Source of the DNA: Naegleria gruberi
Taxonomy: Eukaryota
NCBI GenBank assembly: GCA_000004985.1
Contig: GG738890.1
DNA length: 64,000 bases
Reading direction: 5' to 3' (one strand)
Below, piece by piece: positions 2,033-61,514 of this stretch. Numbering within the stretch: the stretch's first letter is position 1; each line of letters begins with the position of its first letter. The notes beneath the pieces are model-generated. The model was not told where the DNA came from and did no database searches. It was given only the letters and a program-made list of their open reading frames with translations. The position numbers and the translations under genes were made by a program.

Positions 2033-2059
2033 ATCTTAAACTCTTTATACAATATGAAT

Positions 2060-18251: not shown

Positions 18252-18335
18252 GCTCATATAGCTCAGTGGTAGAGCATTTGTCTTATGAGAAATGAGGTTA
18301 GCAGATGGCCGAGGGTTCGACCCCCTCTATGAGCA
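18252..18335 (+). tRNA. Intron-containing tRNA of class I. The anticodon most consistent with the fold is UAU (Ile). A 12-nt intron lies at the canonical 37/38 position.
   Basis: Hand-folded cloverleaf: acceptor GCTCATA/TATGAGC with discriminator A; D arm GCTC-AGTGGTA-GAGC; anticodon stem TTTGT/GCAGA (two G-U pairs); loop CTTATG|A with U33; intron AGAAATGAGGTT; variable loop TGGCC; T arm GAGGG-TTCGACC-CCCTC (GTTCGA box B). A T7 run begins 8 nt downstream (Pol III terminator). The D arm and acceptor resemble eukaryotic tRNA-Ile(UAU), but position 37 reads G, so the isotype is tentative. Confidence 0.75.
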
Positions 18336-18342
18336 GCTCAAA

Positions 18343-18349
18343 TTTTTTT
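18343..18349 (+). terminator. Pol III terminator (T7 run) downstream of the tRNA
   Basis: TTTTTTT lies 8 nt after the discriminator base. Confidence 0.5.
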
Positions 18350-18619
18350 ATTCAACTTTGCAATAACAGTGATTTACAGGGCTAATTAAAATAAGCAATA
18401 GCTTATTTAAGGATTTTCCAAATCATATGGAACAACTCTACACTAGTATTACATTTCCACCTATTAATCTTTTGAGATTCAGTAAGTGCTGTACCTCTAA
18501 TGTACAACCTCCTCCTCCTCAATAAACATCACAACATCTACACAACCAATATATTTATCCATCAACTACAGTTGTTTTGCGAATCAAGCATTATTTTAGC
18601 CTCAATACAGCAAAAAAAA

Positions 18620-21571
18620 ATGAAAGAGGAAATTGAGTGCGAAATTGGCTCCTCACTGCCAATTTGTTCTGTTGATGATGTTGCTGCAGTAGGTGATGGA
18701 AGATTTGAAGAGGCCGGTGCTGGTTGTAGTAGTAGCAGAGCTAGGATGGATATGAATTTAAAATTGTCATCATTAGAAAAATCATCTTTATCAGCACCTT
18801 CATCGTCAAGGCAGTTATCCACTTCTTTTGTTGGAAATAATAATAGTAGTACTAATATGATGGTTGTTCAACAACAACAACAACAACAACAGCCGAGGAA
18901 TAATTTTGACGGCAATGGTTTAAAGCAAGAAAAACCATCAACACAATTAGTGGAATCGAAACCGAGAACGGACTATCCAGATTATCATCAAGACAAGAAT
19001 GGAAAGAAATATGTAAATAATCAAGAAGAAGAAATTCAAAAGAAGAGTAGACTGCGGAAATTATATATTAAATACTTTAGGAATGTTTTTTTGGCTGATG
19101 AAGACGATCAATTGAAATATCAAATGAAAATACGAGCAGCAGAGGAGCAATACAAGATACTAATACTTTTAGGACTTAGTTTGAATTTAATCACGTCAAT
19201 ATTCTATATTGAATGGAATTTTATTAGACAAGTCAACTTTTTCTCATTGTGCTTCCTTGACACCTTTTTGGATATTGTGGTGCAGTTATTACTAATATTT
19301 TGTGGAGCTGCAAAGGATTTGCCAACACTGGAATTGGCTCACGTTTTTAAGAATTTAATTTTGGGCTCAGTGAGAGCTGTTAATCAAATCTATTCAGGGT
19401 TCTACTCACCCATATGGATAATGAATGGCTTTGCATTGCTTATATTTTCTCATGTGGCGTTTTTCAGAAATTCACTCTCTCTTATATCCTGTCTGACCCT
19501 CATTTTCAGTTCCATGTTTGGGCAGTATGTATCTTTCCAAGTAATGTTTTCAGAAGTGGAGAGGGGAGGAAGATTCATCACACTCACTCATCTTGAGAAG
19601 CAAACACCACACATGCATATGGTCTTGAATTCATCTATTTATTTACAAACTATTCTACAAAATACCATTATACAGGTGTTCATTCTTGCATTGGGAATCA
19701 TGTTCTCGAGAGATGTTGAAGAGCAGTACAGTAGAAGTATCCGATTTGAATATCAAATCAAAACTGAAAGGTTTTTAAATGCATCAAAAACCAAGTTTAT
19801 TGGAAACTTGTCTCATGAGGTGAGTGCTATTCTATTATTTGTACATTTTCAATTAATAACTATTTAAATTAATTATTTTAATTTTGAAAAATAGATGAGG
19901 AATCCATTACATGGAATGATTGGAATTATTGAAATTTTGAAAATAGAAATTAAAAAGATTATTGACACACTGAGCCAAACGGATTTTAACAAACATGAAA
20001 CAAGAGAACCAGTAATTAAGGAGGTAATCTCTGCTAGTGAATCGAACATTGACCTCATCGATGATATACACAGTAATGCAAGAATGCTCTTGAATATATT
20101 TTCCAATTCGCTTCAAATAAGTAGTCTCGAGTTGGGTCAATTGAAATTGAATTATAGCCACTTCAACATTCTGGAAATGAGCGATTCCATCATTTCAGTG
20201 TTTTCAACCATTGCAAGAGACAAGGGTCTTGTACTTCAGTCATTCTTTGATGTTGAAAATGTTCCAATCGTACTCAAAGCAGACTCGGTAAGACTCTCTC
20301 AAATTTTAATCAATATTGTATCCAATAGTGTCAAGTATACAAGGAATGGAAAGGTTATCTTCACTTGTGGAACAGTTGACAGATCAGATGCAGACTTTCC
20401 ATTCAAAGAAGAGAGGATTTCTCTCGATATTGGAGAATCTGAGCCTATTGAAGAGGATAATATTTGCTTTTTAAAAATTGAGTGTAAAGATACAGGAATT
20501 GGAATTGCTCCTGATCAGTTGGAAAAGTTATTTGAACCTTTTCATATTGTTGAGGAAAAGACTGTGAAACAAAATATGGAATTTGATAGGTACTATACCC
20601 AATCCGTTGTTAACACTAACAATTCATTCAACGATAGACACGGCCTCGGATTGAGCATCTCCCACAAATTGATTCAATTAATGAGGGGAAAGATTATTGT
20701 AAAGAGTAAAGTCAATGAAGGAACGACAATCACTCTCTACATTCCAACAATCAAAATTCCACAAGAGGAATCGAAACAGTATTCTGAATGCATACATAAT
20801 AAGATTAAAGAATTGGAAACGAGCGATGTCAGAGAAGTATTAATTTTAGACGACGATGACGGAGTGAAAGATGTTCTTCACAAGTATTGTGCATTTGTTT
20901 TCAAAAAACCAATCAGAGAACTATCCACTGAGAAGGATGCCATAGATTTTTTCAATAGCACAACCAATCTTAATAATTGTTTGATACTGTACAATTCAAA
21001 CAAGTTTTCCTCTCCGTTCTCCATGAATATTAATGCGAAGGAAAATATCATCATTCAGCTTTGTTCTCGATCAACAACATCCAATTTGAACTCTAACACA
21101 CTCTATCTTCCTTTCAAATTTGAAAAGTTTATCAATATTTTGTACAATAATATTGTTGTAAAGAATAAGGAAAATGACAAGTCATTCCATATTGATAAGG
21201 TTGCAAATGGCGCCAAGAGAGCTCTCGTTGTCGATGATAATGATGTCAATAGAAAAGTACTTCAGAAATTAATGACCCTTCTTGGCTTTGAAGTGGAAAC
21301 AGCTGCTGATGGTTTGGAAGCTTTTGAGATGGTGAAAAAAACGTCAAGACCATACGATATTATTCTAATGGATCTGCTAATGCCAGTCCTTTGCGGAAAG
21401 GAGAGCTGCAAACTCATGAGAGATTTAAAATGCTCTGCCAAGATTATTGCTGTCACTGCAAACATTTGGGAAAGCATGGATACCATTCAACAGGCAGGAT
21501 TTGATTCTGTTTTGAGGAAACCAGTCATGCTTAATGACCTCCGAAAAGAACTCTCTAAATATCTTAACTAG
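18620..21571 (+). CDS. Hybrid sensor histidine kinase with a multi-TM N-terminal region, HisKA, HATPase_c and a C-terminal receiver domain. The CDS is join(18620..19819, 19895..21571).
   Basis: The H-box spans the intron: ...FIGNLSHE|MRNPLHGMIGIIEIL. The N box is IVSNSVKYTRNG, G1 is DTGIGI, and G2 is GLGLSISHKLIQLMRG. The receiver has ALVVDDNDVNRKVL...DIILMDLLMPV...KIIAVTAN. The 75-nt intron runs GTGAGT...ATAG in phase 0. The N-terminal start is uncertain: I chose the ATG at 18620 in an aaaaaaaaaATG context, and the ORF extends further up to 18500. Confidence 0.8.
18869..18892. repeat. (CAA)7CAG microsatellite encoding a polyglutamine tract inside the histidine-kinase N-terminal region
   Basis: Direct read: caacaacaacaacaacaacaacag. 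Confidence 0.9.
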
Positions 21572-21802
21572 ATGGAATTTAATGATTATTTAATTTACTG
21601 CTTCAATTAATGTGGACGGATCGTAAAAGTAATAACAATTCTTGATGATTTTTCAAAACATAATTAGTTGGATGTATTCTCCAATAATTGATTGACACTA
21701 TCCGATATCAATTTACCAGTGATCTCTATTGACAGAGTTATATTTTGAATAAGAGAGAAATTATTAGATATTATTCTTGATAATTTACAATGCTATTTCA
21801 TT

Positions 21803-34170: not shown

Positions 34171-37100
34171 TTAGAAGGAAAGTCTATACAATACATAGCA
34201 AACGCGATTCACAAATGTTCCAATAAAATCTTGTTCTTGATCATTTGGTATTCTTGGATCTTGAATAGTGACACCCTCAATCTTTGGTGAGCTGGATCGT
34301 TGTTGTAATTCTAGTAGTAATTCTGGCTCTTGTAACAATCTCTTCTTACACAAATAACAAGAGATAGTGTTGGAGAGGATTGAATAGTTAATGTGAAGTA
34401 AGTAATTTTGGCCTGTTGCACTACTGTCTGGAGTGATAATCAAGTGTTGAGCAGTGCCATCCTTTTTGAAAATACTCCCAGCCCTTTCTCCTCCATAAAT
34501 ATTCCACAACTCTGAGATGACATCATTCCAAGGTATATAGTTGGCCTCAAATATGGACAATGTAAAATCATAATCGGTAATAGGTGTCTTGATCCAAAGG
34601 GCGTCCAAGTCATTGAAGAGATTTTCACTAATCTTGAAATTGAGAGCCATTTCCCACAAAATATCAAGCTTGAATGAATCCTTAACGCTGTGGAGAAGGT
34701 TGAGAAGTTTTCTCTCATATTGTTGAGCCATTTGAGTGACAATCTTGTACATGTTTTCTTTGGAACCTTCAACATCAGAATCATACGGATGTCTATTGGT
34801 AGCATCTGCAAAGACAATGTACATTGTGAGATTCATTGTAGAGTTTTCATACATTTCTTCAGACATTGGACTTGAAGGAGAGATGTGAGAAGTTGAATTT
34901 TCAATACTCTTAGTGACAATGACAGAGTATGAGTAGTCTGCCTCATCATGTGAAATATAGGTATCCAAAATAAAGCACTCCTTACTCTTTTGGTTGAACT
35001 TGACACGATATCTTTCAGAATTCTTGCAAATATATTCAAAGAAGAAATGGAAAGGATCATTCAATATTTCTCTTCTCTCCAAATTTCCACTAGCCTTTAT
35101 GTTGGCCTTTTCTCTCATAATATCGGCAATGTCCTTAGAATTTTCAAATACGATATGATGAGAGTGGAGAATATTTCTGGTGTGAGGAGGTGGCTTTGGA
35201 TAGAATTGAGCAAAGTCCTTCAACAAGCACATAAAACTGAGAGAAGGAGGAAAGCCAGAATAGTCTGTAGTGAGGTAATTCAAAAAGTTTCTCAAATGGA
35301 AATCATAAGAAAATGAATTCATGTGGAGTGAGTGTTTGAATTGACTGACTTTCTTCAAGAATTCTCCTCTGGAAGAAGAACGATTATGCATCAATCCTGA
35401 AGGTTTTTGAGACACTGTATCGGATACATAGACATTCAAGTAGGCATAAATACTGTCCAATCCAAGCTCCAAAAACAAGACACCTTCATCCATTTGTTTT
35501 TGGAAATAAATAGTTGTTGGTTGAAGTTTGATAATTTGGTTACCAACGACTTGAACCAATGGAGTAGGTTGTTTTGGTTGCTTTTCTCTTGTGATTGAAA
35601 TTTGAAGGTTTGGTTCTGCTCCAGGAGTTGAAGGAATATCGTTCTGCTCGGATGGATTCAAAAACACATCAGAAATATCCAAAGATTTGACATACTCAAC
35701 ATATTCGCTAAGGAAAGATTCAAATACCTTTCTGTGGTATCCAATTTCACGTAAATTATTATTTTGGGTATCTTCAAAGGATGAGGTATTACCAAGATCC
35801 ATCTGTTGAATAATTGCTGCAGAGCTTGAAGATACAAATGAGGATGGATCGAAAAGTATTCTTCTTAAAGGATTGAACAAGAGAGGTACTCTACAGAAGT
35901 GAATCAATCTCGAAGTATTCTTAATGAGTTGGAAATCTTTCGATTTGAGACTAGTAGAGTAGGATTTGTTATTCCAAAATCCATAAATTTTAGAAACTTG
36001 TTGTTGTTCCACCTTCTTCTTGTAATTTTGGTGGACAATGTGCTTAAAGTGGAGACCATGAATTAAGAGCTGATCTTTCTTTGATTCTACTGGGGTTCTT
36101 CTACTCAAATATCTGCCAGGATTCTTATCTAGATCATAAATTCCTTTCAGCAAGGAACCAAATTGATTCTTGCTGGATTGTGGCTTCTTTTCCTTTCTGA
36201 TAGGTTTGGCAACTTCACTCTTTACCTCAACTGTTGCTACTTGTATTGGTGTTGTGGTTTGAGGTGTTTTGAATCTATTGTAAATTTGTCCTCTAACATC
36301 AGGCATTTGTTTTGGTGCATTCATGGTGGATGGAGTGGAAGGTGTTGTAGTACTTCTCCTGATTGTGGTTGTAGTTTTAGGATCTACTGGTGCATTTTGT
36401 TTGTTATAAATCAAGAGGTCAATATTGTTGAAGGCGAATTGAACTTCCTTTTGTGGCTTTCCACTTTGACTTGGATTTAAAGGATTTGATGGAATTGAAA
36501 CCAAGTTACTAGAGTGTGAGTGATAGAATAAACCAAGTTTTTGATGGAGAATGCTATTCAATAAGTGAGCTCTACATCTCAACCATGAGACAGTTTGATG
36601 CAAGTGATATTTGAATTTTTCAAACTGAGGAGACTTCCAGTTGTAAGCTATTACTTGGAGCTCAGCACTTGTGAGGATAATGACAATACAACATTTTCTA
36701 TTATATTTGAATGAATTTCTATAGTTAAATCCTTCCAATGATATTATATCACCAATCTTGATATTTTCACCAATATTAATAACTCTATCATTATTTTGCA
36801 CAAGTATATTACCGGCTATCATGGCAAAACAAACATTGTTAGAATCAATCAAGTGGTACTTTTCTGTGAAATCTTCACTTCTAGAGTATTTGACAAAGTT
36901 TTGCCTTCCGTCTGTGCTGACAAATGTAACTGGTCTAAATTTAAAGCTGTATACAGAGAGTAAGTTGTAGAGATCTCCAATAAAACGTCCCATTTCCCAT
37001 AATGGTAAGAAAATAGATGCTCTGTGTTCAGTTAGTGTTGGAGAATCAATTCTGGAGGCTTTGATGGCTTGAGTTTGTAATCTAGCTAAAAAGTATCTGT

Positions 37101-40100
37101 TGAATCCTTCCAAACTCAAAGGGTTTGTAAATAGTCCACATTCCACAATATAATCAATAACAGATTGGTTAACAGTTTGAACAATCTTTTCTAAAAGGGA
37201 AGGAATATCAACTTCTCCCTTCTTCCAAAACTCGAACAGTATCTTTCCATTCTCACTTGACAATGACTTGGAAGATACTTCTGTTGTTGTCCCTACCTCG
37301 TCATCCTCATCTTCAGAGTCAGAGTTACTGCCTTCCTTCTTTAAAATGGGAGCACCAAAATCTGTGTAAGGAATGTTTGCAGGTTCTTCTTGCAAGTTTC
37401 CAAGCTGAGAGACACCTGTCAAATCGCAAACATATGACTCCTTCATAGGTGGGAAAACTGTAACCATCTCTCCATTTTGATTCAGTAATGTTAATTGTAC
37501 ACAAGCTATACCTCTGCAATTCACTGTTGAGGTCATGGCTCTTGAGAAGGTATTCTGTGTGACAGAGTTGAACAAGAAGGAAAAGTCCCAAGCTTTAAAT
37601 ACCATATCATCATCCTCGTCCTCGGTAAATGACATGTAGGCCTGAGGATTGTTACTATCAGTAGAGTCATCACTACTAGATAAATAGAGTTGATTCATAA
37701 AGGTCAACATGTTATTCCTGAGGAATAGCATGAACAAGAGCTTGTTGTTAATAAACTTTGGAATATTGATTAACACACTTTTTTGTGGTTTTTGTAGTAA
37801 TGGTCTAATAAACTCCAAATCTTCAACTGTAACTTTGAATTGTCTGTTTCTCAATAATAAATTGGAAATAATATTCATAGTGAGAGCAGATAATTTTCCT
37901 TCAATAAGATTTCTCAATTGTGCAGTAATTTCCGCACTTGGAGAATAGACACCATAGACTTCCAAAACTATGGAGGATGTCTTATTCTTCAAATCCAATT
38001 CAGCATACAAATATTGACCCATACTTGACAAGGAAAGTGAGTAATCTTTCAATTTCGTCTTGAATTCTTGGTCGGATTGTTCAGGTTGTTCTGGTATTTC
38101 AGGAGACTTTTCAGTGGTTGGTGACAATACATCTACCTGCTTGTTACCATCAACTAGTTGCAAATAGAAAACTCTACCACTTCTTTCCTTGTAGACAAAC
38201 ATTTCACTTCTGTTAGCAACAATGAACGGATTAAAAACTGCTTGATTCAAGTGATTAATAGCCATAGCAGTAGTCAAACGACTATGAAGAGGGAAAGAAA
38301 TTTCATATGTCTTTCTACAAGCAAAGTCTCCTTCCTTGAATTTTTCTGGATTTGGTTTTTCATTGTCCTTTCTGATAAGTTTCTTGTCTAGAGTATTGAT
38401 TTCATTTTGAAGAGCCTTCTTATCCTTTTCCTTTCTGAAGGGTAATAGGAGGGAGCTACAAAGTCTGGTATCATGTAAATTGGAAAGAAGTAACAGAGTA
38501 TTCACTCTCTTACAAATAACACTGATTGCCTTGAAAACAACACTAACCACATCATTGGCATGTTTAGTGGATAATGCAGTAGGTGAATAAAACAGCATTG
38601 ACATGGATTTTTTGTTTTCCACCCTTAATATAATCCAGAAGGGTAATTCCAGACAAGATCTTTCCATTTCAATATCGTTATCAAAAATAACCATTTCCAA
38701 ATCATCCAATTCCTTCTTGTAGAGATTGTACTTGTTATTATCAGAGGTTGCATCTTGCTCACAAGCTTTATCAAAATCCTCAAATATTGTATGCTTGGAA
38801 CAACAATTTCTCTTTCTAAAGTAAAGAATGTAGTGATTTTCAATATTCTTAAAGACCAAGTTCTTACATTTGGCCATTTCTTGGTGGAATAATTTCAATC
38901 CTTCAACAGGGTCGATGAAAAAGAGAGGGATTGAGTGTTTTTGGTAACAGGTGGTTGGCAACTTCTCTATATTATCAAAAACCTTCTTGATTGAATATGA
39001 AGTGATTGGATGAGTTTTAAGGAGAGCATTCAAAATTTCTTTGGAAATAAGAGCTTGGAGACGCTTATTAGTTCTAGACATTATTCTTCGAATGTGTCTT
39101 GGCAGGTATCCCTTGTCGAGGTAAGGTGCTGCTTCATCTGTTGGTACATCAGCTGATGAATCCTCTTCGACATCGAATACACTTCTTGCATAGGCAAACT
39201 GACTTTCAGTTACATGATTTCTGAACATCATGAGTAAGTCCTTCTTGGCTGGTTCGAATCCATTCACAGCCGCAAAGTGTTTATCAGGTGGAAGAGTAAT
39301 ACAATAGAGTCTGAGAGAAGTCTTTACAGAGTTTAAAGAGTTAATCCAGTCCAAATCCATACTAGAACGAGTGAAACTCTCAGGTTCCTCTTCTTCATCT
39401 TCACTATCTTCGTCCTTTGAAAATGCAGATAATACTTGAGCAAATTCACCCTTGCTAGACATGATTGTACTGGCAATTTTGTCAATTGGCAGTTTCTTAA
39501 TAGGTACTTTGATAGTGGAACTTATATTCTCCGAGTCATTATCAAGTTCATTCCAACTATCGTGATCCCTCTCAATTGGTGATAAAACACATTCCATTCT
39601 CATGAACACTGGGATGGTAGAATTTTCCAACTCTACAGAGTTGAATGTATCAGTCAGTGAAGAGCCAGAACTATCTGTTAATGAATCAGAAGCATGATCT
39701 GAGTGAGGATGAGTATCTGCTCTTGCTCCAGCAGATATACTTGTTGAGATGGAGTGAATTTCATCCTCTTCGCTATGGAAACTGCTAATTTCATCATCAG
39801 AAGCTTCAGCGTCAAAATCTTCATTCTCAATTTCTTCTAAATGGTCAAAGCTCTTGGCACTATTCTTCTTCTTGAGAATTTTTGGATTAGTAGTAGTGGT
39901 TGTCTGATTCTTAGTTTTTGGTATCGAACTTTCTCTCAAATAGTAATGATACTTAGTTCCTCTGATATCATCAAAGTACTTTTCAATTATAGCCTTGAAG
40001 GAGGCTGCCATTGATTCGCATGGACTTATTCCATTTTCTCCCTTCTCGAAGAAGTAACTTCTTGCCAATAGTATTGCTTCAAAGAATTCAGACAAGTCAA

Positions 40101-43100
40101 TTTCCTCCCTATATTCGTAACAAGATTCAACAGCAGATACAATATTTTCTCTATCAACCAAAAGTTTTTGGTTAAGATGCTTATAAACTCCATAAGATAA
40201 ACTGTAGGAGTGAAGATTAGTAACAAAATCACAATATGAAGCAGAAGAAGAAAATGCTTGCTCCTCCTCGTGCATTAGCATTGGGTGTGCCTTCACATTT
40301 AGAGGTCCATTCTTGGAACATACTAACTTTTCAATTGCCTCATTACGTTTCAGATTCTCGATGTTTAAAAGTTGGTCCTCGTTACATTCACATACAATAA
40401 TGTTGAAGTTTAACTCCTCTCCATTCACTTGAGCAGGAACGATTGTTAAAATAAAGTCCTTTTGTCTTTCAGAGCCAACAGTTTCAAACACTCTTGCAAA
40501 ACATCTTGATTTGGTATTTAAATTGAGTGGAATCCTATCAATGTTCAATTCCACATCATTGATATTACTAAGGAATTTGATGAGTCTGTCATAGAGTAAA
40601 ATATTATTCTTCTTGCATAATTCCGACTCTGATTCACTTGAAATTTTAAAGACCTTGAATTGAAGGTCTTGCTTCTCAGATCTATCAACAATACCCTTTA
40701 GGTTGAAAGGGGTCGGAAGATTATTCTTTTCAGCTTGGAATACGGCAATATTGTTATTATTTCCTTTCCCGGATTTACATGCCGTAACAACACATTCAAA
40801 GGTTGAAAATAGAGAAATAATTTGCAAATCCAAATTATAAAACCAATTATCACACAAATCAGTGTAAAATTGGGAAGAATCAGAGAGAGCACCACTCGAA
40901 TGGGTCACATAACCTGATTGTGGCTCAATCCAAAGTTCTGTAATCAGCTTCTTTTCTTTCTTGAGGATGTGAATACAATAAAAGACCAACAATTTAGAAA
41001 GATATTCCGCATCGTTGAAGGCGTTTCTTTTCATCATTTCCAATTCCTTCACAAATACAATAGATTGTTTTGAAGAAACTAAAGAGAAACCTTCACTAAA
41101 TCTCTGAGAGAAAATGGAGGACAATATTCCAGCAACATTCAATCTGCCACCAACAGACCATACCCAATTTTTGTGCTTCATATATGAAGTATAGTGTGGA
41201 GGAGCAGAGTAGAGTGATTGATTATACTGTGATTCATCCTCTCTACAGTTGGGCAGCCTGGAAGCAATATCTGGGAAGTGTTCACTCACATAGAAATTGG
41301 CTGAAATTCCTTTCTGATGGAATGTCCTTGTTATCTTTTCTTTGAATTGTCGAATAATTCTAGAAATTGTGAAGGAAGAAACATTAAAGAATTGGAATTG
41401 AATCTCGATTGGTGAATTGAAATTACTCAGCAGTTTCAAAAGGCAAAAACCAGAAGAAACACAGCTATCCTTCTCTTCCATGCTTAATAGAGAAGTATCA
41501 TCTACAGACTCGTACAGGTAACAGGTGGAATCCTGCTCTGAGAGGAATAAAATGTAAAAATCGTCTGATATTTTTGTTGAAGACCAACTGTTGTCACAAA
41601 GGGACCTCAGTATTGAAATATGATTTTGAACAGTGGTAATTTCCGTTGTTCCTGATTGAATTTGGGTCAAAATCTTTTGAATTATCGAATCTGATCTGTG
41701 TAAGTGTTGCTCGTCATTGTGAGGTGAGAGCATCAAAGTTTGTCTATCAAATAAAAAGTCTTTCTCATGTTCAAAATTAATATTTGAAAGGTCTAACTTT
41801 CTGATAGGTGTTCTGTTGGTGCATGAGCAATTGTCAGCAAGATTATGATATTGCTCCAGCAGCACATCCTCGATATTGATCTTTTGAATAAAGTCCTGCA
41901 CTGATTTGAAGAAGGACAACTCCTTATTTTTCTTTTTCAAGTACATCTTGAATCTTTCTTGATTGGATTTGTGCATAAATGCTGTGATTGTCACCACAAT
42001 TTTAAAATTTTTTAGTTTGGTGAGTGCAAAATTAGTAAAATTACTACTCGACAGCATTTGTAAATCTTGTTCTTCATTGAGAACATCTGTTCTTTCTATT
42101 TGCATTCTGTAAATAATTTCAATATTTCTCCTATAAAGTAAACTCATTTTGATGGATTTGTAATCGAGTTTTTCCTCTTCTGCCTTGAACTTGGTAAGAG
42201 AGTCTGTGTTTGTTGCGTATTTCAAGTCCATAATTTTGAAACCTTGTTTTGCCCTAGTTTTCAAGATGGAATCCACATTGGTCATATTCAAACTGTAGGC
42301 AAGGATTTCCGATTCACAATAACCCTTCTTTACATCCTTTTTTATATCGGTCTGTGTGGTGAAAACACTCCCTTCTCCTGCAGAAATGATTAAACTCTCA
42401 TTCTCAGCTGCCAATACAGGTGTTGGCCTGAATAGCAATGCATGTTGGAGTGCATTAGTCTTTTTTCTATCATTTTCTGATGGAACTTCTTCAATATACT
42501 CATAATCAATATAGTAACCATCCACACAAGCGATAAATGACTCTACCAATTCAGAATCAGGCAGATAACTATATAAGTAAGCCCCTTGGGATTGATTGGT
42601 GATATTAATTGTTGCAAAACTAATATCCTTTTGATTAATGCTCAGTATTGTTTCAGGAGTCAAATCAGAAATATTGAAAACGTTATCACTAATGAGAAGG
42701 AAAATTGGGCATGCATCTTTTGGTAAAAAGTCAAAAGCCAGTATCGAATCAGAAATGTAAGTATTGAATTTAGAATCAGAAGTCTCCGAAAGACTTTTAA
42801 GAGAAGGTCTAAGAGCATTTGAAGCCATATTTTCAGTTTCGCATAAATTTTGATAAACCTTTCCTAGAACCTCCACAAGATTTGTCGAAGTAATATGATA
42901 ATCTTGAAAGAGACAATAAACTGGTCTTCCAGCCATTCCAATAGCAATACAAGAAACATGAAGCTCTGGTAAAATTTCCTCCGAATAATTTGGTACAATA
43001 ATTGGTTGTGTTAAATGTGTTAAAATATTCGATATTGTCTTGAATACTCTGTCGAATAATACTTCTCCTGTTGTTGTATCAATTGCAAGCATAGAAGGAC

Positions 43101-44136
43101 TAATATCCACAGTAATAACAATTCCGTATTTTGAATAAATAGTATGAACCAATGAAGTTGGTAAAAGTTCTATTCCTAAATCCTCAGTAAATTCCTCTGT
43201 TGATGCAGTCGAACTAACAGTCTCAATGGTATCAAGATGTCCATGAAATTGGTTAAACTTTGGTGATGATTCATTTCCATTATAGAAATTTGGTGGCAGA
43301 ATAACAACACCACCTCCCTGTTGATTACTTCCTCCATAGTGAATCTGATCAATACTAATACTCCTCACAATATTTGAATTTGTGGCTTGATGTAATTGAT
43401 CAATACTCATACTCCTAGGAATAGAATCATGAGTAAATGGAAATTGATTTAAATAGGATTCATCAGAAATTGTTGTAGTTGGTGAATTTTGCATTGAATT
43501 TCTATCCATAGAATATTCTGAAGAGTGCATAAATCCACTCGTAAATGTTGTAGATTCATCCATAGAAGATGAATTATGATGGTGATGATGAGAATCAACA
43601 TGTTGATGGTTTTTCAAAAATCTATTCTTCCTAACAGATAAATCTTTACAAGTCTTGATAGAGACCGAAATAACCTGAATGTTTTTGCTATTATTATTGG
43701 ATAGGGAAGGAGAAGTAGGTGAATTTGCTGTTGTTGTTGTCGACAACATTGAAGAACGAGGAGAAGAGGTTACTTGCTCATGTGCAGCACCATCATGATT
43801 TTTCGTTATTAATTGATTAATATTAGCATGAAGATGATTCAATTGCCATACCAATCTCTCGGATTTTCTAAAGAGTGAATAGTCTTGTGATTTGAGAAAA
43901 ACATGTTTTGCTCCAACATTACGTCCAATATTATTACTATGAACCATATGAATAGAGGAAGAAGATAATGCTCTCTTGGACCGATGATGAAGCACTGGTC
44001 CTCCTCCATTCTCATCATGAAAATCATCCTGTGAGAGTGGAAGAAAGTCTTCCGAAGTGATCAACTCTAAAGGTTGTTGTTGTGTAGAGGGTGAGGTTGG
44101 AGAGGTCGTTAGCATAACATGATGACCGCTCCACAT
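34171..44136 (-). CDS. Giant 3321-aa protein, a putative SZT2 (KICSTOR complex) homolog
   Basis: It is a single uninterrupted 9966-nt ORF with ATG at 44136. The N-terminal segment ...HVFLKSQDYSLFRKSERLVWQLNHLH... matches my recollection of the vertebrate SZT2 N-terminus (...[25 protein letters not shown]...), and the size is similar (about 3300-3400 aa). I see no other recognisable domains: no chorein, BEACH, PIKK or AAA signatures. Confidence 0.5.
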   Translation of the reverse strand: MWSGHHVMLTTSPTSPSTQQQPLELITSEDFLPLSQDDFHDENGGGPVLHHRSKRALSSSSIHMVHSNNIGRNVGAKHVFLKSQDYSLFRKSERLVWQLNHLHANINQLITKNHDGAAHEQVTSSPRSSMLSTTTTANSPTSPSLSNNNSKNIQVISVSIKTCKDLSVRKNRFLKNHQHVDSHHHHHNSSSMDESTTFTSGFMHSSEYSMDRNSMQNSPTTTISDESYLNQFPFTHDSIPRSMSIDQLHQATNSNIVRSISIDQIHYGGSNQQGGGVVILPPNFYNGNESSPKFNQFHGHLDTIETVSSTASTEEFTEDLGIELLPTSLVHTIYSKYGIVITVDISPSMLAIDTTTGEVLFDRVFKTISNILTHLTQPIIVPNYSEEILPELHVSCIAIGMAGRPVYCLFQDYHITSTNLVEVLGKVYQNLCETENMASNALRPSLKSLSETSDSKFNTYISDSILAFDFLPKDACPIFLLISDNVFNISDLTPETILSINQKDISFATINITNQSQGAYLYSYLPDSELVESFIACVDGYYIDYEYIEEVPSENDRKKTNALQHALLFRPTPVLAAENESLIISAGEGSVFTTQTDIKKDVKKGYCESEILAYSLNMTNVDSILKTRAKQGFKIMDLKYATNTDSLTKFKAEEEKLDYKSIKMSLLYRRNIEIIYRMQIERTDVLNEEQDLQMLSSSNFTNFALTKLKNFKIVVTITAFMHKSNQERFKMYLKKKNKELSFFKSVQDFIQKINIEDVLLEQYHNLADNCSCTNRTPIRKLDLSNINFEHEKDFLFDRQTLMLSPHNDEQHLHRSDSIIQKILTQIQSGTTEITTVQNHISILRSLCDNSWSSTKISDDFYILFLSEQDSTCYLYESVDDTSLLSMEEKDSCVSSGFCLLKLLSNFNSPIEIQFQFFNVSSFTISRIIRQFKEKITRTFHQKGISANFYVSEHFPDIASRLPNCREDESQYNQSLYSAPPHYTSYMKHKNWVWSVGGRLNVAGILSSIFSQRFSEGFSLVSSKQSIVFVKELEMMKRNAFNDAEYLSKLLVFYCIHILKKEKKLITELWIEPQSGYVTHSSGALSDSSQFYTDLCDNWFYNLDLQIISLFSTFECVVTACKSGKGNNNNIAVFQAEKNNLPTPFNLKGIVDRSEKQDLQFKVFKISSESESELCKKNNILLYDRLIKFLSNINDVELNIDRIPLNLNTKSRCFARVFETVGSERQKDFILTIVPAQVNGEELNFNIIVCECNEDQLLNIENLKRNEAIEKLVCSKNGPLNVKAHPMLMHEEEQAFSSSASYCDFVTNLHSYSLSYGVYKHLNQKLLVDRENIVSAVESCYEYREEIDLSEFFEAILLARSYFFEKGENGISPCESMAASFKAIIEKYFDDIRGTKYHYYLRESSIPKTKNQTTTTTNPKILKKKNSAKSFDHLEEIENEDFDAEASDDEISSFHSEEDEIHSISTSISAGARADTHPHSDHASDSLTDSSGSSLTDTFNSVELENSTIPVFMRMECVLSPIERDHDSWNELDNDSENISSTIKVPIKKLPIDKIASTIMSSKGEFAQVLSAFSKDEDSEDEEEEPESFTRSSMDLDWINSLNSVKTSLRLYCITLPPDKHFAAVNGFEPAKKDLLMMFRNHVTESQFAYARSVFDVEEDSSADVPTDEAAPYLDKGYLPRHIRRIMSRTNKRLQALISKEILNALLKTHPITSYSIKKVFDNIEKLPTTCYQKHSIPLFFIDPVEGLKLFHQEMAKCKNLVFKNIENHYILYFRKRNCCSKHTIFEDFDKACEQDATSDNNKYNLYKKELDDLEMVIFDNDIEMERSCLELPFWIILRVENKKSMSMLFYSPTALSTKHANDVVSVVFKAISVICKRVNTLLLLSNLHDTRLCSSLLLPFRKEKDKKALQNEINTLDKKLIRKDNEKPNPEKFKEGDFACRKTYEISFPLHSRLTTAMAINHLNQAVFNPFIVANRSEMFVYKERSGRVFYLQLVDGNKQVDVLSPTTEKSPEIPEQPEQSDQEFKTKLKDYSLSLSSMGQYLYAELDLKNKTSSIVLEVYGVYSPSAEITAQLRNLIEGKLSALTMNIISNLLLRNRQFKVTVEDLEFIRPLLQKPQKSVLINIPKFINNKLLFMLFLRNNMLTFMNQLYLSSSDDSTDSNNPQAYMSFTEDEDDDMVFKAWDFSFLFNSVTQNTFSRAMTSTVNCRGIACVQLTLLNQNGEMVTVFPPMKESYVCDLTGVSQLGNLQEEPANIPYTDFGAPILKKEGSNSDSEDEDDEVGTTTEVSSKSLSSENGKILFEFWKKGEVDIPSLLEKIVQTVNQSVIDYIVECGLFTNPLSLEGFNRYFLARLQTQAIKASRIDSPTLTEHRASIFLPLWEMGRFIGDLYNLLSVYSFKFRPVTFVSTDGRQNFVKYSRSEDFTEKYHLIDSNNVCFAMIAGNILVQNNDRVINIGENIKIGDIISLEGFNYRNSFKYNRKCCIVIILTSAELQVIAYNWKSPQFEKFKYHLHQTVSWLRCRAHLLNSILHQKLGLFYHSHSSNLVSIPSNPLNPSQSGKPQKEVQFAFNNIDLLIYNKQNAPVDPKTTTTIRRSTTTPSTPSTMNAPKQMPDVRGQIYNRFKTPQTTTPIQVATVEVKSEVAKPIRKEKKPQSSKNQFGSLLKGIYDLDKNPGRYLSRRTPVESKKDQLLIHGLHFKHIVHQNYKKKVEQQQVSKIYGFWNNKSYSTSLKSKDFQLIKNTSRLIHFCRVPLLFNPLRRILFDPSSFVSSSSAAIIQQMDLGNTSSFEDTQNNNLREIGYHRKVFESFLSEYVEYVKSLDISDVFLNPSEQNDIPSTPGAEPNLQISITREKQPKQPTPLVQVVGNQIIKLQPTTIYFQKQMDEGVLFLELGLDSIYAYLNVYVSDTVSQKPSGLMHNRSSSRGEFLKKVSQFKHSLHMNSFSYDFHLRNFLNYLTTDYSGFPPSLSFMCLLKDFAQFYPKPPPHTRNILHSHHIVFENSKDIADIMREKANIKASGNLERREILNDPFHFFFEYICKNSERYRVKFNQKSKECFILDTYISHDEADYSYSVIVTKSIENSTSHISPSSPMSEEMYENSTMNLTMYIVFADATNRHPYDSDVEGSKENMYKIVTQMAQQYERKLLNLLHSVKDSFKLDILWEMALNFKISENLFNDLDALWIKTPITDYDFTLSIFEANYIPWNDVISELWNIYGGERAGSIFKKDGTAQHLIITPDSSATGQNYLLHINYSILSNTISCYLCKKRLLQEPELLLELQQRSSSPKIEGVTIQDPRIPNDQEQDFIGTFVNRVCYVLYRLSF

Positions 44137-47123: not shown

Positions 47124-48359
47124 TTAAATGTCGAGACGTTCTAATTGTTTCATTCGTTGAAGGAATTTTTCTCCAACTTGAGAAATATCATTTGAATAAA
47201 TACTGAGAATTGTCAAGCTTTTTGATTGACTAATGAATTTCGCTCCATTGTCACCAATGTTATTTTCACAAATATTAAGAGTAGTCAATCGTTTCATTCC
47301 ACTAATGTGTTTAGCTCCCCTTTCACCAATATCATTACCACAAATATAAAGACTGTCCAACTGTTTCATTTCACTAATGTTTTTAGCACCTTCATGGCCT
47401 AATTGATTATATCCAATACCAAGAAATTTCAATTGTTGAAGTGCACTTATTTGTTTAGCTCCATTACTTTCAATGTTACAGGAAAAAATATTAAGATTAG
47501 TCAATTGAGACATTGCTCCAAGATATTTTGCTCCATCACCAATCTTTGCATTATTAATAGAGAGAGAAGTTAATTGTTTCATAGAACTAATGTGTCTAAC
47601 ACCTTCAATACCAATAAGATTGAAACTAATATCAAGTTCGGTCAATTGATTCATTCCACTGATGTGTTTAGCTCCTTCATCTCCAATATTATTAGTAAGA
47701 ATATAAAGACTAGTCAATTGTTTCAGTTCACTAATAGATTTAGCTCCTTCATCTCCAATTTCATTTTTGGAAATATCTAGATATGTTAATTGTTTCATTG
47801 AACTAATGTGTTTAGCTCCCTCTGTACCAATGCAATAACAATTCCCGCTAATATTAAGTTTAGTTAATTGACTCAGTTGACTAATGTATTTAGCACCTTC
47901 CTTATCTATATTATTGATACTTATATCAAGATTTCTTAATTGTTTCAATTGACTAATGTATTTTACCTCATCTGTACCAAGATTGTTATATTGTACATCA
48001 AGATCAGTCAATTGTTTCATAAATTCCAATATTTTACAATCGAACATAATTGTTAAACTTTCCCTATCTACTTTCAAAGTTTCAATATTTTGTAAAAATT
48101 GACCTTTCAACTTGTCATCATTGTTACATTTTAGCGAAAGTTTACCTCTTTCCACAACAACATTCAACCATTGTTTAGAAACTAAGGCACAATTCATTAC
48201 AATAAATTTAAAATCATTGGCGTGAAAGGATAAAATTTCATCAAGTACATCATCAGGAAAAGGAGAATGAAAATTGTTCATTGGCTTCACAGTGGTAGTA
48301 GTAGTGGTAGTGCTGGTTGATTCTGCTGCAACAGGTTTGCTTGTTTGATGTTGACACAT
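47124..48359 (-). CDS. F-box / leucine-rich-repeat (RNI-like) protein
   Basis: The N-terminal F-box is FPDDVLDEILSFHANDFKFIVMNCALVSKQWLNVV. About twelve tandem 24-28-aa LRRs follow the pattern L..L.IS.N.IG.EGAK.IS.M.QLT. The track start at 48368 is a TTG; the ATG is at 48359 (MCQHQTSK). Confidence 0.7.
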   Translation of the reverse strand: MCQHQTSKPVAAESTSTTTTTTTVKPMNNFHSPFPDDVLDEILSFHANDFKFIVMNCALVSKQWLNVVVERGKLSLKCNNDDKLKGQFLQNIETLKVDRESLTIMFDCKILEFMKQLTDLDVQYNNLGTDEVKYISQLKQLRNLDISINNIDKEGAKYISQLSQLTKLNISGNCYCIGTEGAKHISSMKQLTYLDISKNEIGDEGAKSISELKQLTSLYILTNNIGDEGAKHISGMNQLTELDISFNLIGIEGVRHISSMKQLTSLSINNAKIGDGAKYLGAMSQLTNLNIFSCNIESNGAKQISALQQLKFLGIGYNQLGHEGAKNISEMKQLDSLYICGNDIGERGAKHISGMKRLTTLNICENNIGDNGAKFISQSKSLTILSIYSNDISQVGEKFLQRMKQLERLDI

Positions 48360-48636
48360 TTTTTTCAAGTTTTTGGAACTTTATAAAGTTTTGTCATGCA
48401 CGTATTAAAGATTACAACATTAAAAGAACGGGTAAATGCAATCTAAACATTTTGTTACATTTCCAGTAACAGATTCCCATGTAGAGATGTTTGGTAAATA
48501 AGGTTTTACAATGGGTCGAATCAATTGGCAGAAACATTATCATTGTCATGGTGGAAGTTTCATCACCAATATTCACACATGTACAATTTCTAAACATCAT
48601 GTAGATGCTCTAATAGGTGTTGAGAGTTTGATATCT

Positions 48637-59342: not shown

Positions 59343-59374
59343 TTAACATTACAAATATACTACATTATATATAT

Positions 59375-61219
59375 TTATTCAGTTTTGATTTTGGTTGATC
59401 TTACTCTGCAACAACAGAAGCAACAACACAAGCAAGTCAAGAAACGTTTAACAATCAGTGCGAAAATTCCAATTTGTAGAGCAGTTGTAATGAATATGAA
59501 ACTAGACCATTCCAATGGAAGCTTCATTCCATCATCACCTTCATCAAATCCCCTATGTCCATTAAAATACTTGAATGTAAAATAGAGCGCATTGTGAATT
59601 CTCTCACCTGAATTTGATGAGTAATACTTGAATAATGAGCTTGCCCATTGAATTCTTTCAGCCTTTTCTTGACTAATCAAGGTGCTTTCTATCAAGTTAC
59701 CAAATGTTTGAGGAGTGATCCATTTCGAATAGATCCAATCACCAAAATCTTTATCCTGCAAACGATTACACACTAAAAATTGATCAGCAGTTATTGGAAT
59801 ACCAACCAAGAGCTTTCCATAAAAGATTCCCTCACTCACACTATTAAAACCACAATGAGTGACAAATAATCGAGTTGCCCTATGATTTAGTATAAATTGT
59901 TGGGGAAGAAAGTCACTCGAAAGTTTCATTCTCTTTATCCAAGTATTCGAATCTTGCACAGATGAAGCATAATCCAATTGATTACTATTCATTTCCTTTT
60001 CAAGAACTGCTTGTTGTTCCTTTTCAACTCTCATCAAGACATTCAAATCCTTATTCGATTTCAACACCTTCGAAAGACCTCTAATAATGTTTCGATTAGT
60101 TTCAACACTCAATTTGAATTGACTTCCTGTACTAATAAAAATCAATCTTTCATTATTATTACCAAGCAAATCTAACCAATCTTGAAGGGATTTAAATTCT
60201 AGTTGACCTGAAACTGAATCAATGAGAGGAAAACCAATATCAAAATATTTAGGATAAGCTCTCATTCTACTAGATTCCAATACTCCAGGAGCTGACATTA
60301 ACAAAACTGGATATTGACTCGAAATGGAATTGTAATTTCTATACGAAAAGGTTTTTGTAATGAACTTTGAATTGTAATGTGGTCGAATTTTGAACAATGC
60401 AAAGCAATGAACCAAAATTCTCAGAGTTGGAAAGAAAATTTGTGCAGTAAAAACATTCACTAGAATGGAAAGAATCGAATATCTCCAAACTCTCAACTTG
60501 AACCATTGAAAATAATCATGTAAATATTCGAATCTTCCTAAAATGTAATCTGTGAAAGTTCCCCAAAGTAATTCAGAAATAGAATTTGGATGTGTCAATG
60601 GTAAATCCTCAAAATCAATTGCTTCAGCAATACCAGTCACAAGTGTCATTAATCTCACACTATTATTGAACTTGGCATTTAATTGTTGAAACATGTCAAT
60701 GTATGAATAATGGAAATCCAAAGAATCAACAATTATAATATCTGGCTTTTCATTTGGATAATTCTCAAATCTTTCCATGAAAAAATTAAAAGATTCAATT
60801 GAAAATGAAGCCATGACTTCCAAACCTTCGACAATTGACATTTTCATAATATCCTTCTTCCATTCTCCATATTTATAAAAATATAGAGATTTACTTTGAT
60901 TTTTAGGTAAACCTTTCGATTGATCAATGATTTGATAATTTTGCAAAGGAAAATCTTGTGGAATCCATTCTGAGGGCTTGGACACGTTTTCGATCCACGC
61001 CAACGACACTGAAATTTCATAGAGATTATTTCCATTCTCGTCTTTTGGATTGAATTGCATTAAATTCTTAATGACGGTCATGAAGGGATTGTAATGTCCT
61101 TTGGATGGTGCTGGACAGAACAAGATCTTGATGGCTTGAACTTTCGAATAAAAGCAAACGAAAGTGAGAATGAAAAGAAGGATGAGGATTGGTTTGTTTC
61201 TAAAGACATGTGTCTTCAT
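59375..61219 (-). CDS. UDP-glucuronosyl/UDP-glycosyltransferase of the ER-membrane animal-like UGT type, with signal peptide and C-terminal TM
   Basis: The UGT signature is FILNHRATRLFVTHCGFNSVSEGIFYGKLLVGIPITADQFLVCNRLQD. The signal peptide is MKTHVFRNKPILILLFILTFVCFYSKVQA. The C-terminal anchor is IFITTALQIGIFALIV. The track start at 61255 is a TTG; the ATG is at 61219. Confidence 0.75.
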   Translation of the reverse strand: MKTHVFRNKPILILLFILTFVCFYSKVQAIKILFCPAPSKGHYNPFMTVIKNLMQFNPKDENGNNLYEISVSLAWIENVSKPSEWIPQDFPLQNYQIIDQSKGLPKNQSKSLYFYKYGEWKKDIMKMSIVEGLEVMASFSIESFNFFMERFENYPNEKPDIIIVDSLDFHYSYIDMFQQLNAKFNNSVRLMTLVTGIAEAIDFEDLPLTHPNSISELLWGTFTDYILGRFEYLHDYFQWFKLRVWRYSILSILVNVFTAQIFFPTLRILVHCFALFKIRPHYNSKFITKTFSYRNYNSISSQYPVLLMSAPGVLESSRMRAYPKYFDIGFPLIDSVSGQLEFKSLQDWLDLLGNNNERLIFISTGSQFKLSVETNRNIIRGLSKVLKSNKDLNVLMRVEKEQQAVLEKEMNSNQLDYASSVQDSNTWIKRMKLSSDFLPQQFILNHRATRLFVTHCGFNSVSEGIFYGKLLVGIPITADQFLVCNRLQDKDFGDWIYSKWITPQTFGNLIESTLISQEKAERIQWASSLFKYYSSNSGERIHNALYFTFKYFNGHRGFDEGDDGMKLPLEWSSFIFITTALQIGIFALIVKRFLTCLCCCFCCCRVRSTKIKTE

Positions 61220-61417
61220 CTTGTTTTTTTTTGTGTTTGATTTGAACAAAGTCAATATTAGGATTCTTTTGAATTACAGATTATGAAATTTTTGATTGGG
61301 TTGATGATATTTAAATGTGCGTTGCATAATAGGACTAATTAGTGCTACTTGATTAGCGCGCTTCGTTAGATATTGATATTAAAAAACCTAACATAATGAA
61401 GTCCAATGAAGAAATGT

Positions 61418-61422
61418 AAAAA
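61418..61422 (-). terminator. Pol III terminator (T5 run) downstream of the minus-strand tRNA
   Basis: An A5 run on the plus strand, which is T5 on the tRNA strand, lies 8 nt after the discriminator. Confidence 0.4.
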
Positions 61423-61429
61423 TTTGAAC

Positions 61430-61514
61430 TGCTCATAGAGGGGGTCGAACCCTCGGCCATCTGCTAACCTCATTTTCTCATAAGACAAATGCTCTACCAC
61501 TGAGCTATATGAGC
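61430..61514 (-). tRNA. Second copy of the intron-containing tRNA (anticodon UAU-like), with a 13-nt intron
   Basis: Its reverse complement is identical to the 18252..18335 tRNA over both exons. The only difference is one extra A in the intron (GAGAAAATGAGG versus GAGAAATGAGG). The 3' flank AGTTCAAATTTTT is nearly identical to the first copy (AGCTCAAATTTTTTT). The 5' flanks are unrelated. Confidence 0.75.

What the first reader, a model, noticed from the sequence alone, without database searches (positions are those of the whole stretch)
18252..61514. Two near-identical intron-containing tRNA genes in inverted orientation 43 kb apart
The tRNA at 18252..18335 (+) and the one at 61430..61514 (-) are identical in both exons. 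Their intron sequences are conserved apart from a single A indel. Their 3' flanks share about 15 nt including the T-run terminator, while the 5' flanks are unrelated. The indel falling only in the intron supports the intron call. The conserved 3' flank suggests a recent duplication of the tRNA plus its terminator, not convergent evolution. An inverted pair bracketing about 43 kb of genes is a substrate for inversion by homologous recombination. In dictyostelids, tRNA genes are also the landmarks that TRE and DGLT retroelements use for integration, yet both copies here are clean.
Basis: seen in the sequence. Interest (0 to 1): 0.55.

Follow-up and report, generated by a model that had tools for sequence, protein, structure and literature searches.

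The report
Two ordinary Naegleria tRNA-Ile(UAU) genes
The window holds two intact, intron-containing copies of the isoleucine tRNA gene that reads AUA, 43 kb apart and pointing at each other, but the genome is Naegleria gruberi and not a slime mould, and such dispersed repeated tRNA genes are normal there.

Summary
ARAGORN and the Rfam tRNA model (61.5 and 61.4 bits) call tRNA-Ile(UAU) at 18252-18335 (+) and 61430-61514 (-). The exons are identical. The intron sits at the canonical 37/38 position and is 12 versus 13 nt, differing by one A. The 3' trailers match at 11 of 12 nt up to the T-run.

The taxon is wrong. Seven window ORFs are exact matches to Naegleria gruberi predicted proteins, so the dictyostelid TRE/DGLT argument does not apply.

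N. gruberi is reported to have about 900 tRNA genes in 41 Mb, roughly one per 46 kb. The 43 kb spacing is therefore the genome average. Only the shared isoacceptor and trailer suggest that the two are paralogues.

Similarity covers only about 117 nt, roughly the Pol III transcription unit, with no larger duplicated segment. The intron pairs with the anticodon (CUUAU/AUGAG), and the indel lies in the terminal loop of that helix, so it does not disturb the structure.

The inversion idea has a precedent in yeast but could not be tested. N. fowleri, N. lovaniensis and Willaertia magna share no synteny here and have no tRNA beside the orthologues.

One side note: position 37 is G, not the usual A that carries t6A.

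Verdict: real, ordinary, low interest.

The parts
18252..18335 (+). tRNA-Ile(UAU) gene, copy 1 (84 nt). 5' exon 18252-18287, intron 18288-18299, 3' exon 18300-18335. Anticodon TAT at 18284-18286; G37 at 18287.
   Evidence: ARAGORN; Rfam RF00005 at 61.5 bits; sequence read.
18288..18299 (+). 12-nt intron AGAAATGAGGTT at the canonical 37/38 position. AUGAG pairs with C32-U36 (CUUAU). The 3' splice site lies in a 4-nt bulge.
   Evidence: ARAGORN -i; fold of the isolated anticodon arm.
18336..18349 (+). 3' trailer GCTCAAA followed by a T7 run (18343-18349), read as the Pol III terminator.
   Evidence: Sequence; 11/12 identity with copy 2.
18236..18251 (+). Immediate 5' flank with weak similarity to copy 2 (10/16). 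It has a CAA at -7..-5 and an A/T-rich tract further upstream. Possibly the leader and start-site context.
   Evidence: the repeat finder I2; empirical P 0.002. The functional reading is inference.
61430..61514 (-). tRNA-Ile(UAU) gene, copy 2 (85 nt). 5' exon 61514-61479, intron 61478-61466, 3' exon 61465-61430. Anticodon at 61482-61480; G37 at 61479.
   Evidence: ARAGORN; Rfam RF00005 at 61.4 bits; alignment to copy 1; sequence.
61466..61478 (-). 13-nt intron AGAAAATGAGGTT. It is the same as in copy 1 plus one A in the terminal loop of the anticodon-intron helix.
   Evidence: Alignment; fold.
61418..61429 (-). 3' trailer GTTCAAA followed by a T5 run (61422-61418), read as the Pol III terminator.
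   Evidence: Sequence.
18500..21571 (+). Hybrid histidine kinase gene, seen as two ORFs (18500-19867 and 19895-21571). It starts 165 nt downstream of copy 1 and has the same orientation. It is a neighbour, not part of the repeat.
   Evidence: Pfam HATPase_c and Response_reg; orthologues in N. fowleri, N. lovaniensis and W. magna cover both ORFs.
59375..61219 (-). UDP-glycosyltransferase gene. Its ATG at 61219 lies 210 nt downstream of copy 2, in the same orientation. It is a neighbour, not part of the repeat.
   Evidence: Pfam UDPGT; translation; W. magna orthologue.

Best explanation
These are two functional members of the multi-copy nuclear tRNA-Ile(UAU) gene family of Naegleria gruberi.

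How each gene most likely works:
- RNA polymerase III transcribes it from internal promoters: an A box, TAGCTCAGTGG, and a B box, GGTTCGACCCC.
- Transcription ends at a T-run 8 nt past the discriminator base.
- The pre-tRNA carries a very short intron (12 or 13 nt) at position 37/38.
- The intron base-pairs with the anticodon (C32-U36 with AUGAG). The 5' splice site then lies in the terminal loop and the 3' splice site in a bulge, which is the standard substrate of the eukaryotic tRNA splicing endonuclease.
- By analogy with yeasts, this anticodon-intron helix probably lets a Pus1-type enzyme convert U34 and U36 to pseudouridine before splicing. That would make a tRNA specific for the AUA codon.

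The two copies are paralogues that share about 117 nt, roughly the transcription unit. Selection on the tRNA, its intron and its terminator, possibly with gene conversion between family members, keeps them nearly identical. Everything outside that stretch is unrelated. Their inverted arrangement 43 kb apart has no demonstrated function.

Shown here: gene calls, structure, intron position, extent of similarity and the organism. Inferred: transcription, splicing, pseudouridylation and how the copy arose.
For: - Gene calls and intact cloverleaf.
- Intron at 37/38 and the 5-bp anticodon-intron helix, with the indel in its terminal loop.
- A box, B box, no encoded CCA, and T7/T5 runs: read directly.
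- Organism is N. gruberi: seven exact protein matches.
- N. gruberi has 924 tDNAs (883 not flagged as pseudogenes) in 41 Mb, 84% of them outside clusters (PMC2888827). Two tRNAs in 64 kb is the expected density.
- AUA makes up 11.4 per 1000 codons and 16% of Ile codons in the window's ORFs, so a dedicated AUA decoder is needed.
- In yeasts, pseudouridine 34/36 in tRNA-Ile(UAU) needs the intron-anticodon helix (PMC11408192; PMC11912914).
- Similarity is confined to about -16..+17 around the gene.
- No retroelement domains in any large ORF. The intergenic gaps beside the tRNAs are only 165-590 nt.
Against: - There are no expression, splicing or modification data.
- Position 37 is G rather than the A (t6A) expected for a tRNA reading an A-starting codon, so the tRNA is not fully canonical.
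- ARAGORN -i folded copy 2 in an alternative intron-less way with a long variable arm. I judge this an artefact of the extra A, but it shows that the intron call for copy 2 rests on homology to copy 1.
- Two neighbouring tRNA genes with the same anticodon are not expected from random scatter (roughly 1-3% under my rough estimate of family size). Some local copying event is therefore likely, and its mechanism is unresolved.
- Other N. gruberi tRNA-Ile(UAU) copies could not be retrieved, so I cannot tell whether the shared intron and trailer are family-wide.
Confidence: 0.85

Rival explanations
1. Recent local inverted DNA duplication. A small DNA segment carrying the tRNA and its terminator was copied to a site 43 kb away in the opposite orientation not long ago. 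The pair now acts as an inverted repeat that can flip the intervening 43 kb.
For: - Nearest-neighbour tRNA genes with the same anticodon on one scaffold.
- Trailer 11/12 identical, beyond chance.
- Intron identical except for one A.
- Yeast inversions are flanked by tRNA genes (PMC3302566).
Against: - No flanking homology beyond about 16 nt on either side. A segmental duplication would need both breakpoints to fall almost exactly at the ends of the transcription unit.
- If the event is old enough for the flanks to have randomised, it is not recent.
- Only 41 and 47 bp of uninterrupted identity are available for recombination.
- No evidence of an inversion: the relatives share no synteny here.
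Confidence: 0.2
2. RNA-mediated copy. One gene arose by reverse transcription and insertion of an unspliced Pol III primary transcript. This would explain why similarity begins a few nucleotides upstream of the mature 5' end and stops in the T-run.
For: - The boundaries of similarity (about -16 to the T-run) coincide with a plausible Pol III transcript.
- N. gruberi has an unusually large tRNA gene complement for a 41-Mb genome (924), which fits some efficient dispersal mechanism.
Against: - No target-site duplications beyond chance and no A-rich tail.
- The leader region is only 62% identical, against 92% for the trailer.
- The copy keeps the intron, and the internal promoter alone would explain a functional copy under any mechanism.
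- No reverse-transcriptase ORF in the window.
Confidence: 0.08
3. Old dispersed paralogues kept alike by gene conversion (concerted evolution) across the whole tRNA-Ile(UAU) family. Under this reading the proximity of these two copies is coincidental.
For: - Near-identity of an intron and trailer next to fully diverged flanks is the classic pattern of a short conversion tract.
- tRNA families in eukaryotes are commonly homogeneous (general knowledge).
Against: - It cannot be told apart from purifying selection with two copies only.
- Adjacency of the same isoacceptor would then be a coincidence at the few-percent level.
Confidence: 0.3

Closest known systems
Yeast nuclear tRNA-Ile(UAU) genes: S. 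cerevisiae tI(UAU) and the S. pombe gene
   Same: Both have the UAU anticodon and an intron at 37/38 that base-pairs with the anticodon. They share internal Pol III promoters, a T-run terminator and multiple dispersed identical copies. In yeasts the intron helix is needed for Pus1-dependent pseudouridine 34/36 (PMC11408192; PMC11912914).
   Different: The intron here is only 12-13 nt, against about 60 nt in S. cerevisiae as I recall it. Position 37 is G, not A/t6A; t6A is reported in S. pombe tRNA-Ile(UAU). Modification and splicing are untested in Naegleria.
Inverted tRNA gene pairs at inversion breakpoints in Saccharomyces sensu stricto
   Same: The pair has opposite orientation and the same isoacceptor, and it brackets tens of kilobases. 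The yeast inversions were 1-30 kb and all were flanked by tRNA genes (PMC3302566, citing the comparative yeast genome study).
   Different: No inversion is documented here. The interval is 43 kb, and no close relative was available for comparison.
Dictyostelid tRNA genes as TRE/DGLT-A retroelement targets
   Same: Both are Pol III tRNA genes in a compact, AT-rich protist genome.
   Different: The host is Naegleria gruberi (Discoba), not a dictyostelid. There are no retroelement ORFs or repeats near either tRNA.
Trypanosoma brucei tRNA-Tyr(GUA) with its 11-nt intron
   Same: It is another discoban nuclear tRNA with a very short canonical-position intron (PMC11408192).
   Different: The isoacceptor differs. 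The trypanosome intron undergoes non-canonical editing, and there is no evidence for that here.

Membership tests
Eukaryotic nuclear intron-containing tRNA-Ile(UAU) gene | Complete cloverleaf with conserved tRNA residues, scoring above the family threshold | tested here: met
   Rfam RF00005 at 61.5 and 61.4 bits against a gathering score of 29. ARAGORN cloverleaf with a 7/4/5/5-bp set of stems.
Eukaryotic nuclear intron-containing tRNA-Ile(UAU) gene | Anticodon UAU preceded by U33 | tested here: met
   ARAGORN anticodon tat. The spliced loop is CUUAUGA. Every other way of removing 12 contiguous nucleotides gives a non-standard loop (own reading).
Eukaryotic nuclear intron-containing tRNA-Ile(UAU) gene | Intron at the canonical 37/38 position, with an anticodon-intron helix and a bulged 3' splice site | tested here: met
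   ARAGORN -i finds a 12-nt intron after the nucleotide 3' of the anticodon in copy 1. The arm folds as ((((((((((.....)))))....))))) in both copies. For copy 2 the intron is assigned by alignment.
Eukaryotic nuclear intron-containing tRNA-Ile(UAU) gene | Pol III signals: A box, B box, downstream T-run, and no encoded CCA | tested here: met
   TAGCTCAGTGG and GGTTCGACCCC lie within the gene. T7 is at 18343-18349 and T5 at 61422-61418. The 3' end is followed by GCT or GTT. The consensus sequences are from general knowledge.
Eukaryotic nuclear intron-containing tRNA-Ile(UAU) gene | A37, the t6A site typical of tRNAs that read A-starting codons | tested here: not met
   Position 37 is G in both copies (18287 and 61479). 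The same CUUAUGA loop recurs in at least 125 metagenomic tRNA(UAU) genes. In IMG/VR, 6 contigs carry it against 43 with CUUAUAA under matched patterns. It is therefore a minority variant, not a defect.
Eukaryotic nuclear intron-containing tRNA-Ile(UAU) gene | Transcribed, spliced, charged with isoleucine, and carrying pseudouridine 34/36 | not testable with these tools
   No expression or modification data are available here.
Segmental inverted duplication / recombination-competent inverted repeat | Homology extends beyond the functional gene into neutral flanks | tested here: not met
   The inverted repeat is limited to about 117 nt. The 3' flank beyond 20 nt is no better than shuffles (186 of 500). 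The 5' flank is marginal and gappy.
Segmental inverted duplication / recombination-competent inverted repeat | The interval is inverted in a related genome or strain | tested here: inconclusive
   The orthologue loci in N. fowleri, N. lovaniensis and W. magna hold no tRNA (81 kb scanned) and have unrelated neighbours. Closer relatives could not be retrieved.
Dictyostelid tRNA-targeted retroelement landing site (TRE5/TRE3/DGLT-A) | The host genome is a dictyostelid | tested here: not met
   Seven ORFs are identical to Naegleria gruberi proteins EFC40811 and others.
Retroposed tRNA copy / tRNA-derived SINE | Target-site duplications and an A-rich or element-derived tail | tested here: not met
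   The longest shared flank words are 7-mers, and 28% of random controls reach that. There is no tail beyond the T-run.

The most novel reading that the evidence does not exclude
The dedicated AUA-decoding tRNA of Naegleria gruberi has G37 in both copies, so it cannot carry t6A37. That modification is regarded as near-universal on tRNAs that read A-starting codons. AUA decoding would then rely on another loop chemistry, for example m1G37 together with intron-guided pseudouridine 34/36. The same CUUAUGA loop in many environmental and giant-virus tRNA(UAU) genes would mark an unrecognised class of AUA decoders. A second, less likely possibility is that the inverted pair marks the ends of a 43-kb inversion that is polymorphic within the N. 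gruberi species group.
Probability: 0.15. Interest if true: 0.45.

Novelty: already known. Interest (0 to 1): 0.15.

Why it matters
It matters little. The result corrects the taxon: Naegleria gruberi, not a dictyostelid. It also shows that the pair is a normal piece of a genome carrying about 900 tRNA genes.

Three points have modest value:
- It gives a clean example of a very short (12-13 nt) tRNA-Ile(UAU) intron that still forms the anticodon-intron helix, outside fungi and animals. This fits the view that this intron is kept for anticodon modification.
- Similarity confined to the transcription unit raises the question of how Naegleria multiplied its tRNA genes.
- G37 in an AUA decoder could be checked cheaply by tRNA sequencing.

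Tried and rejected
- Exact protein look-ups for the genes beside each tRNA found nothing. The N. gruberi assembly itself is not retrievable through the contig tool, so I could not collect other tRNA-Ile(UAU) copies or sequence beyond the window.
- The look-up of P0121 returned only a 2-kb ENA metagenome contig.
- Synteny test: orthologues of the histidine kinase (N. fowleri, N. lovaniensis, W. magna) and of the glycosyltransferase (W. magna) were fetched with 10-kb flanks. They hold no tRNAs and no shared neighbours. Neither the ancestral arrangement nor an inversion can be inferred.
- A metagenome scan for the exact 5' exon gave zero hits.
- The looser scan returned mostly intron-less tRNA(UAU) genes in multi-tRNA clusters, many probably viral or prokaryotic. 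It bears only on the G37 side question.
- A viral scan for a near-exact tRNA body gave two unrelated intron-less hits.
- Target-site duplications were searched for and rejected.
- A full-length minimum-free-energy fold of the pre-tRNA gives a non-cloverleaf anticodon region. I rejected it in favour of the covariance-model and ARAGORN structure.
- The ARAGORN long-variable-arm fold of copy 2 was rejected as an artefact.
- A literature search for G37 in tRNA-Ile(UAU) found nothing specific.
Full report
**Observation.** ARAGORN finds exactly two tRNA genes in the 64-kb window. Both are tRNA-Ile with anticodon TAT, at 18252-18335 (+) and 61430-61514 (-). The Rfam tRNA covariance model scores them at 61.5 and 61.4 bits against a gathering score of 29, matching the full model with a 15-nt insertion in the anticodon loop.

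A global alignment shows one difference across 84 versus 85 nt: an extra A in an A-run of the intron. In intron mode ARAGORN reports a 12-nt intron, AGAAATGAGGTT, immediately after the nucleotide 3' of the anticodon in copy 1. Copy 2 has AGAAAATGAGGTT by alignment.

All stems are intact. The acceptor stem has 7 bp, the D stem 4 bp, the anticodon stem 5 bp including two G-U pairs, and the T stem 5 bp.

**Extent of similarity.** The repeat finder reports the pair as the only long inverted repeat in the window, covering 18236-18352 against 61413-61530, about 117 nt.

- The 3' trailers, GCTCAAATTTTT and GTTCAAATTTTT, match at 11 of 12 positions. The empirical P is 2e-5 against all window 12-mers. 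For the 7 nt before the T-run the match is 6 of 7, P 0.002.
- Beyond about 17 nt the 3' flanks are no more alike than shuffled sequence.
- The 5' flanks are essentially unrelated. The exception is 10 of 16 matches at -16..-1 (P 0.002). Both copies have a CAA a few nucleotides upstream and an A/T-rich tract at about -15 to -27.
- The longest uninterrupted identical blocks are 41 and 47 bp.
- Neither copy has target-site duplications or an A-rich tail.

**Organism.** That is wrong.

- The histidine-kinase ORF next to copy 1 finds its best homologues in Naegleria fowleri (40%), N. lovaniensis (38%) and Willaertia magna (33%).
- Seven window ORFs are residue-for-residue identical to predicted proteins of Naegleria gruberi (EFC40811, EFC40812, EFC40732, EFC40815, EFC40821, EFC40823, EFC40738), all on a 350,200-bp scaffold.
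- GC content is 34%. The gene content is ordinary eukaryotic: alpha-actinin, a PAS-domain cyclase, LRR, F-box and RIO-kinase proteins and a syntaxin.

The remarks about TRE and DGLT retroelements therefore do not apply. In any case no large ORF carries a retroelement domain, and the gaps beside the tRNAs are only 165-590 nt.

**Anatomy and likely mechanism.** The genes carry the internal Pol III promoter elements, an A box (TAGCTCAGTGG) and a B box (GGTTCGACCCC). They encode no CCA. A T7 or T5 run follows 8 nt after the discriminator base.

Folded alone, the anticodon arm plus intron forms the 5-bp anticodon stem stacked on a 5-bp helix between C32-U36 (CUUAU) and intron AUGAG. The 5' splice site (G37|A) lies in the terminal loop, and the 3' splice site (U|A38) lies in a 4-nt bulge. 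This is the usual substrate shape for the eukaryotic splicing endonuclease.

The A indel lies in the terminal loop of that helix (5 versus 6 nt). It is structurally neutral, which fits the intron call.

In S. cerevisiae and S. pombe, Pus1 makes pseudouridine 34 and 36 in tRNA-Ile(UAU) only on the intron-containing precursor, when the anticodon and intron form a double helix (PMC11408192; PMC11912914). The helix conserved here makes the same role the most likely function of this short intron, but that is inference.

AUA accounts for 11.4 per 1000 codons and 16% of Ile codons in the window's ORFs, so the tRNA is needed.

**Is the arrangement special?** A survey of eukaryotic tRNA genes lists 924 tDNAs for N. 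gruberi (883 not flagged as pseudogenes) in 41 Mb. Of these, 84% lie outside clusters (PMC2888827). That is one tRNA gene per roughly 45 kb, so two tRNAs 43 kb apart is the average spacing.

What is not expected from random scatter is that the two neighbours have the same anticodon. That would happen a few percent of the time at most. Together with the shared trailer it makes common descent through some local copying event likely.

The mechanism is open, because similarity is confined to about the transcription unit. There are four options:
- a small DNA duplication followed by decay of the neutral flanks, which would mean it is not recent;
- gene conversion among family members;
- selection on the intron and trailer;
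- an RNA-mediated copy, whose hallmarks are absent.

With only two copies visible I cannot separate these.

**Inversion hypothesis.** The idea has a precedent. [quoted passage not shown]

I fetched the orthologous histidine-kinase loci of N. fowleri, N. lovaniensis and W. magna, and the orthologous glycosyltransferase locus of W. magna, each with up to 10 kb of flank on each side. These 81 kb hold no tRNA gene. A tblastn of all window ORFs against them matches only the query genes themselves. In W. magna the two orthologues lie on different contigs.

These relatives are therefore too rearranged to say anything, and the hypothesis remains untested. A closer genome exists (N. clarki RU30, PMC11702301) but is not in the searchable collections.

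**Side observation.** After canonical splicing the anticodon loop reads CUUAUGA, so position 37 is G. tRNAs that read A-starting codons normally have A37 carrying t6A, and S. pombe tRNA-Ile(UAU) contains t6A.

The variant is not unique to this genome:
- A pattern scan of metagenomes returned at least 125 tRNA(UAU) genes with the same loop. Two of them contain introns, and one (L062) also shares the UUUGU anticodon stem and a GGUU intron end.
- In IMG/VR, matched patterns gave 6 contigs with CUUAUGA against 43 with CUUAUAA. Two of the six are giant-virus bins.
- A literature search found nothing specific on this variant.

I record it as a minority loop type that may deserve a look. It is not a defect of these genes.

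**Verdict.** It is wrong on the taxon, it does not show that the duplication is recent, and it implies significance for a spacing that is simply the genome average. This is an ordinary pair of nuclear tRNA-Ile(UAU) genes in a published genome.

Noticed in passing
window 18287 and 61479: Position 37 of the spliced tRNA-Ile(UAU) is G, not the A (t6A site) usual for tRNAs reading A-starting codons. The same CUUAUGA loop occurs in at least 125 metagenomic tRNA(UAU) genes. In IMG/VR it is found in 6 contigs against 43 with the A37 loop, under matched patterns.
   Followed up: partly
L125 (ENA ERZ929261, run ERR1078381) versus window 1922-4003: A 2-kb metagenome contig is 97.9% identical to the window and encodes an identical syntaxin-like protein. 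A close relative of N. gruberi NEG-M is therefore present in that sample. Its reads could serve as a source of a near-relative for synteny checks.
   Followed up: partly
L008 187-662 (contig C687J13896_1000184): Six tandem tRNA(UAU) genes of two alternating sequence types lie head to tail within 480 nt of an environmental contig.
   Followed up: no
L062 (Ga0209777_10160559) and L051 (JACCDO010782776.1): These two environmental contigs carry intron-containing tRNA-Ile(UAU) genes with G37. L062 also shares the UUUGU anticodon stem and a GGUU intron end with the Naegleria genes, so it may come from a related protist.
   Followed up: no
window 61430-61514: In intron mode ARAGORN folds copy 2 as an intron-less tRNA with a long variable arm. 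The extra A allows an AUUUGU/GAAAAU stem. This is a software artefact that could mislead automated annotation.
   Followed up: yes
window 18236-18251 and 61515-61530: The 16 nt immediately upstream of the two genes match at 10 of 16 positions (P 0.002). Both have a CAA near -5 to -9 and an A/T tract at -15 to -27. This may be a Pol III start-site and upstream element context.
   Followed up: partly
window 18335-18500 and 61219-61430: Each tRNA lies 165-210 nt upstream of a protein-coding gene and in the same orientation. The genes are the histidine kinase and the UDP-glycosyltransferase, so each tRNA sits inside a presumed Pol II promoter region.
   Followed up: no
window 47199-47980: Eight or more tandem copies of a 72-nt unit at 62-73% identity. 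They correspond to 24-residue leucine-rich repeats in ORF 47124-48368.
   Followed up: partly
window 34171-44136 (-): An uninterrupted 3321-residue ORF with no Pfam match at all.
   Followed up: no
window 19868-19894: The histidine-kinase gene is split into two ORFs by a 27-nt gap, while the N. fowleri and N. lovaniensis orthologues align across both parts. The gap is probably a very short intron or a frame change. No HisKA domain was detected in either ORF.
   Followed up: no
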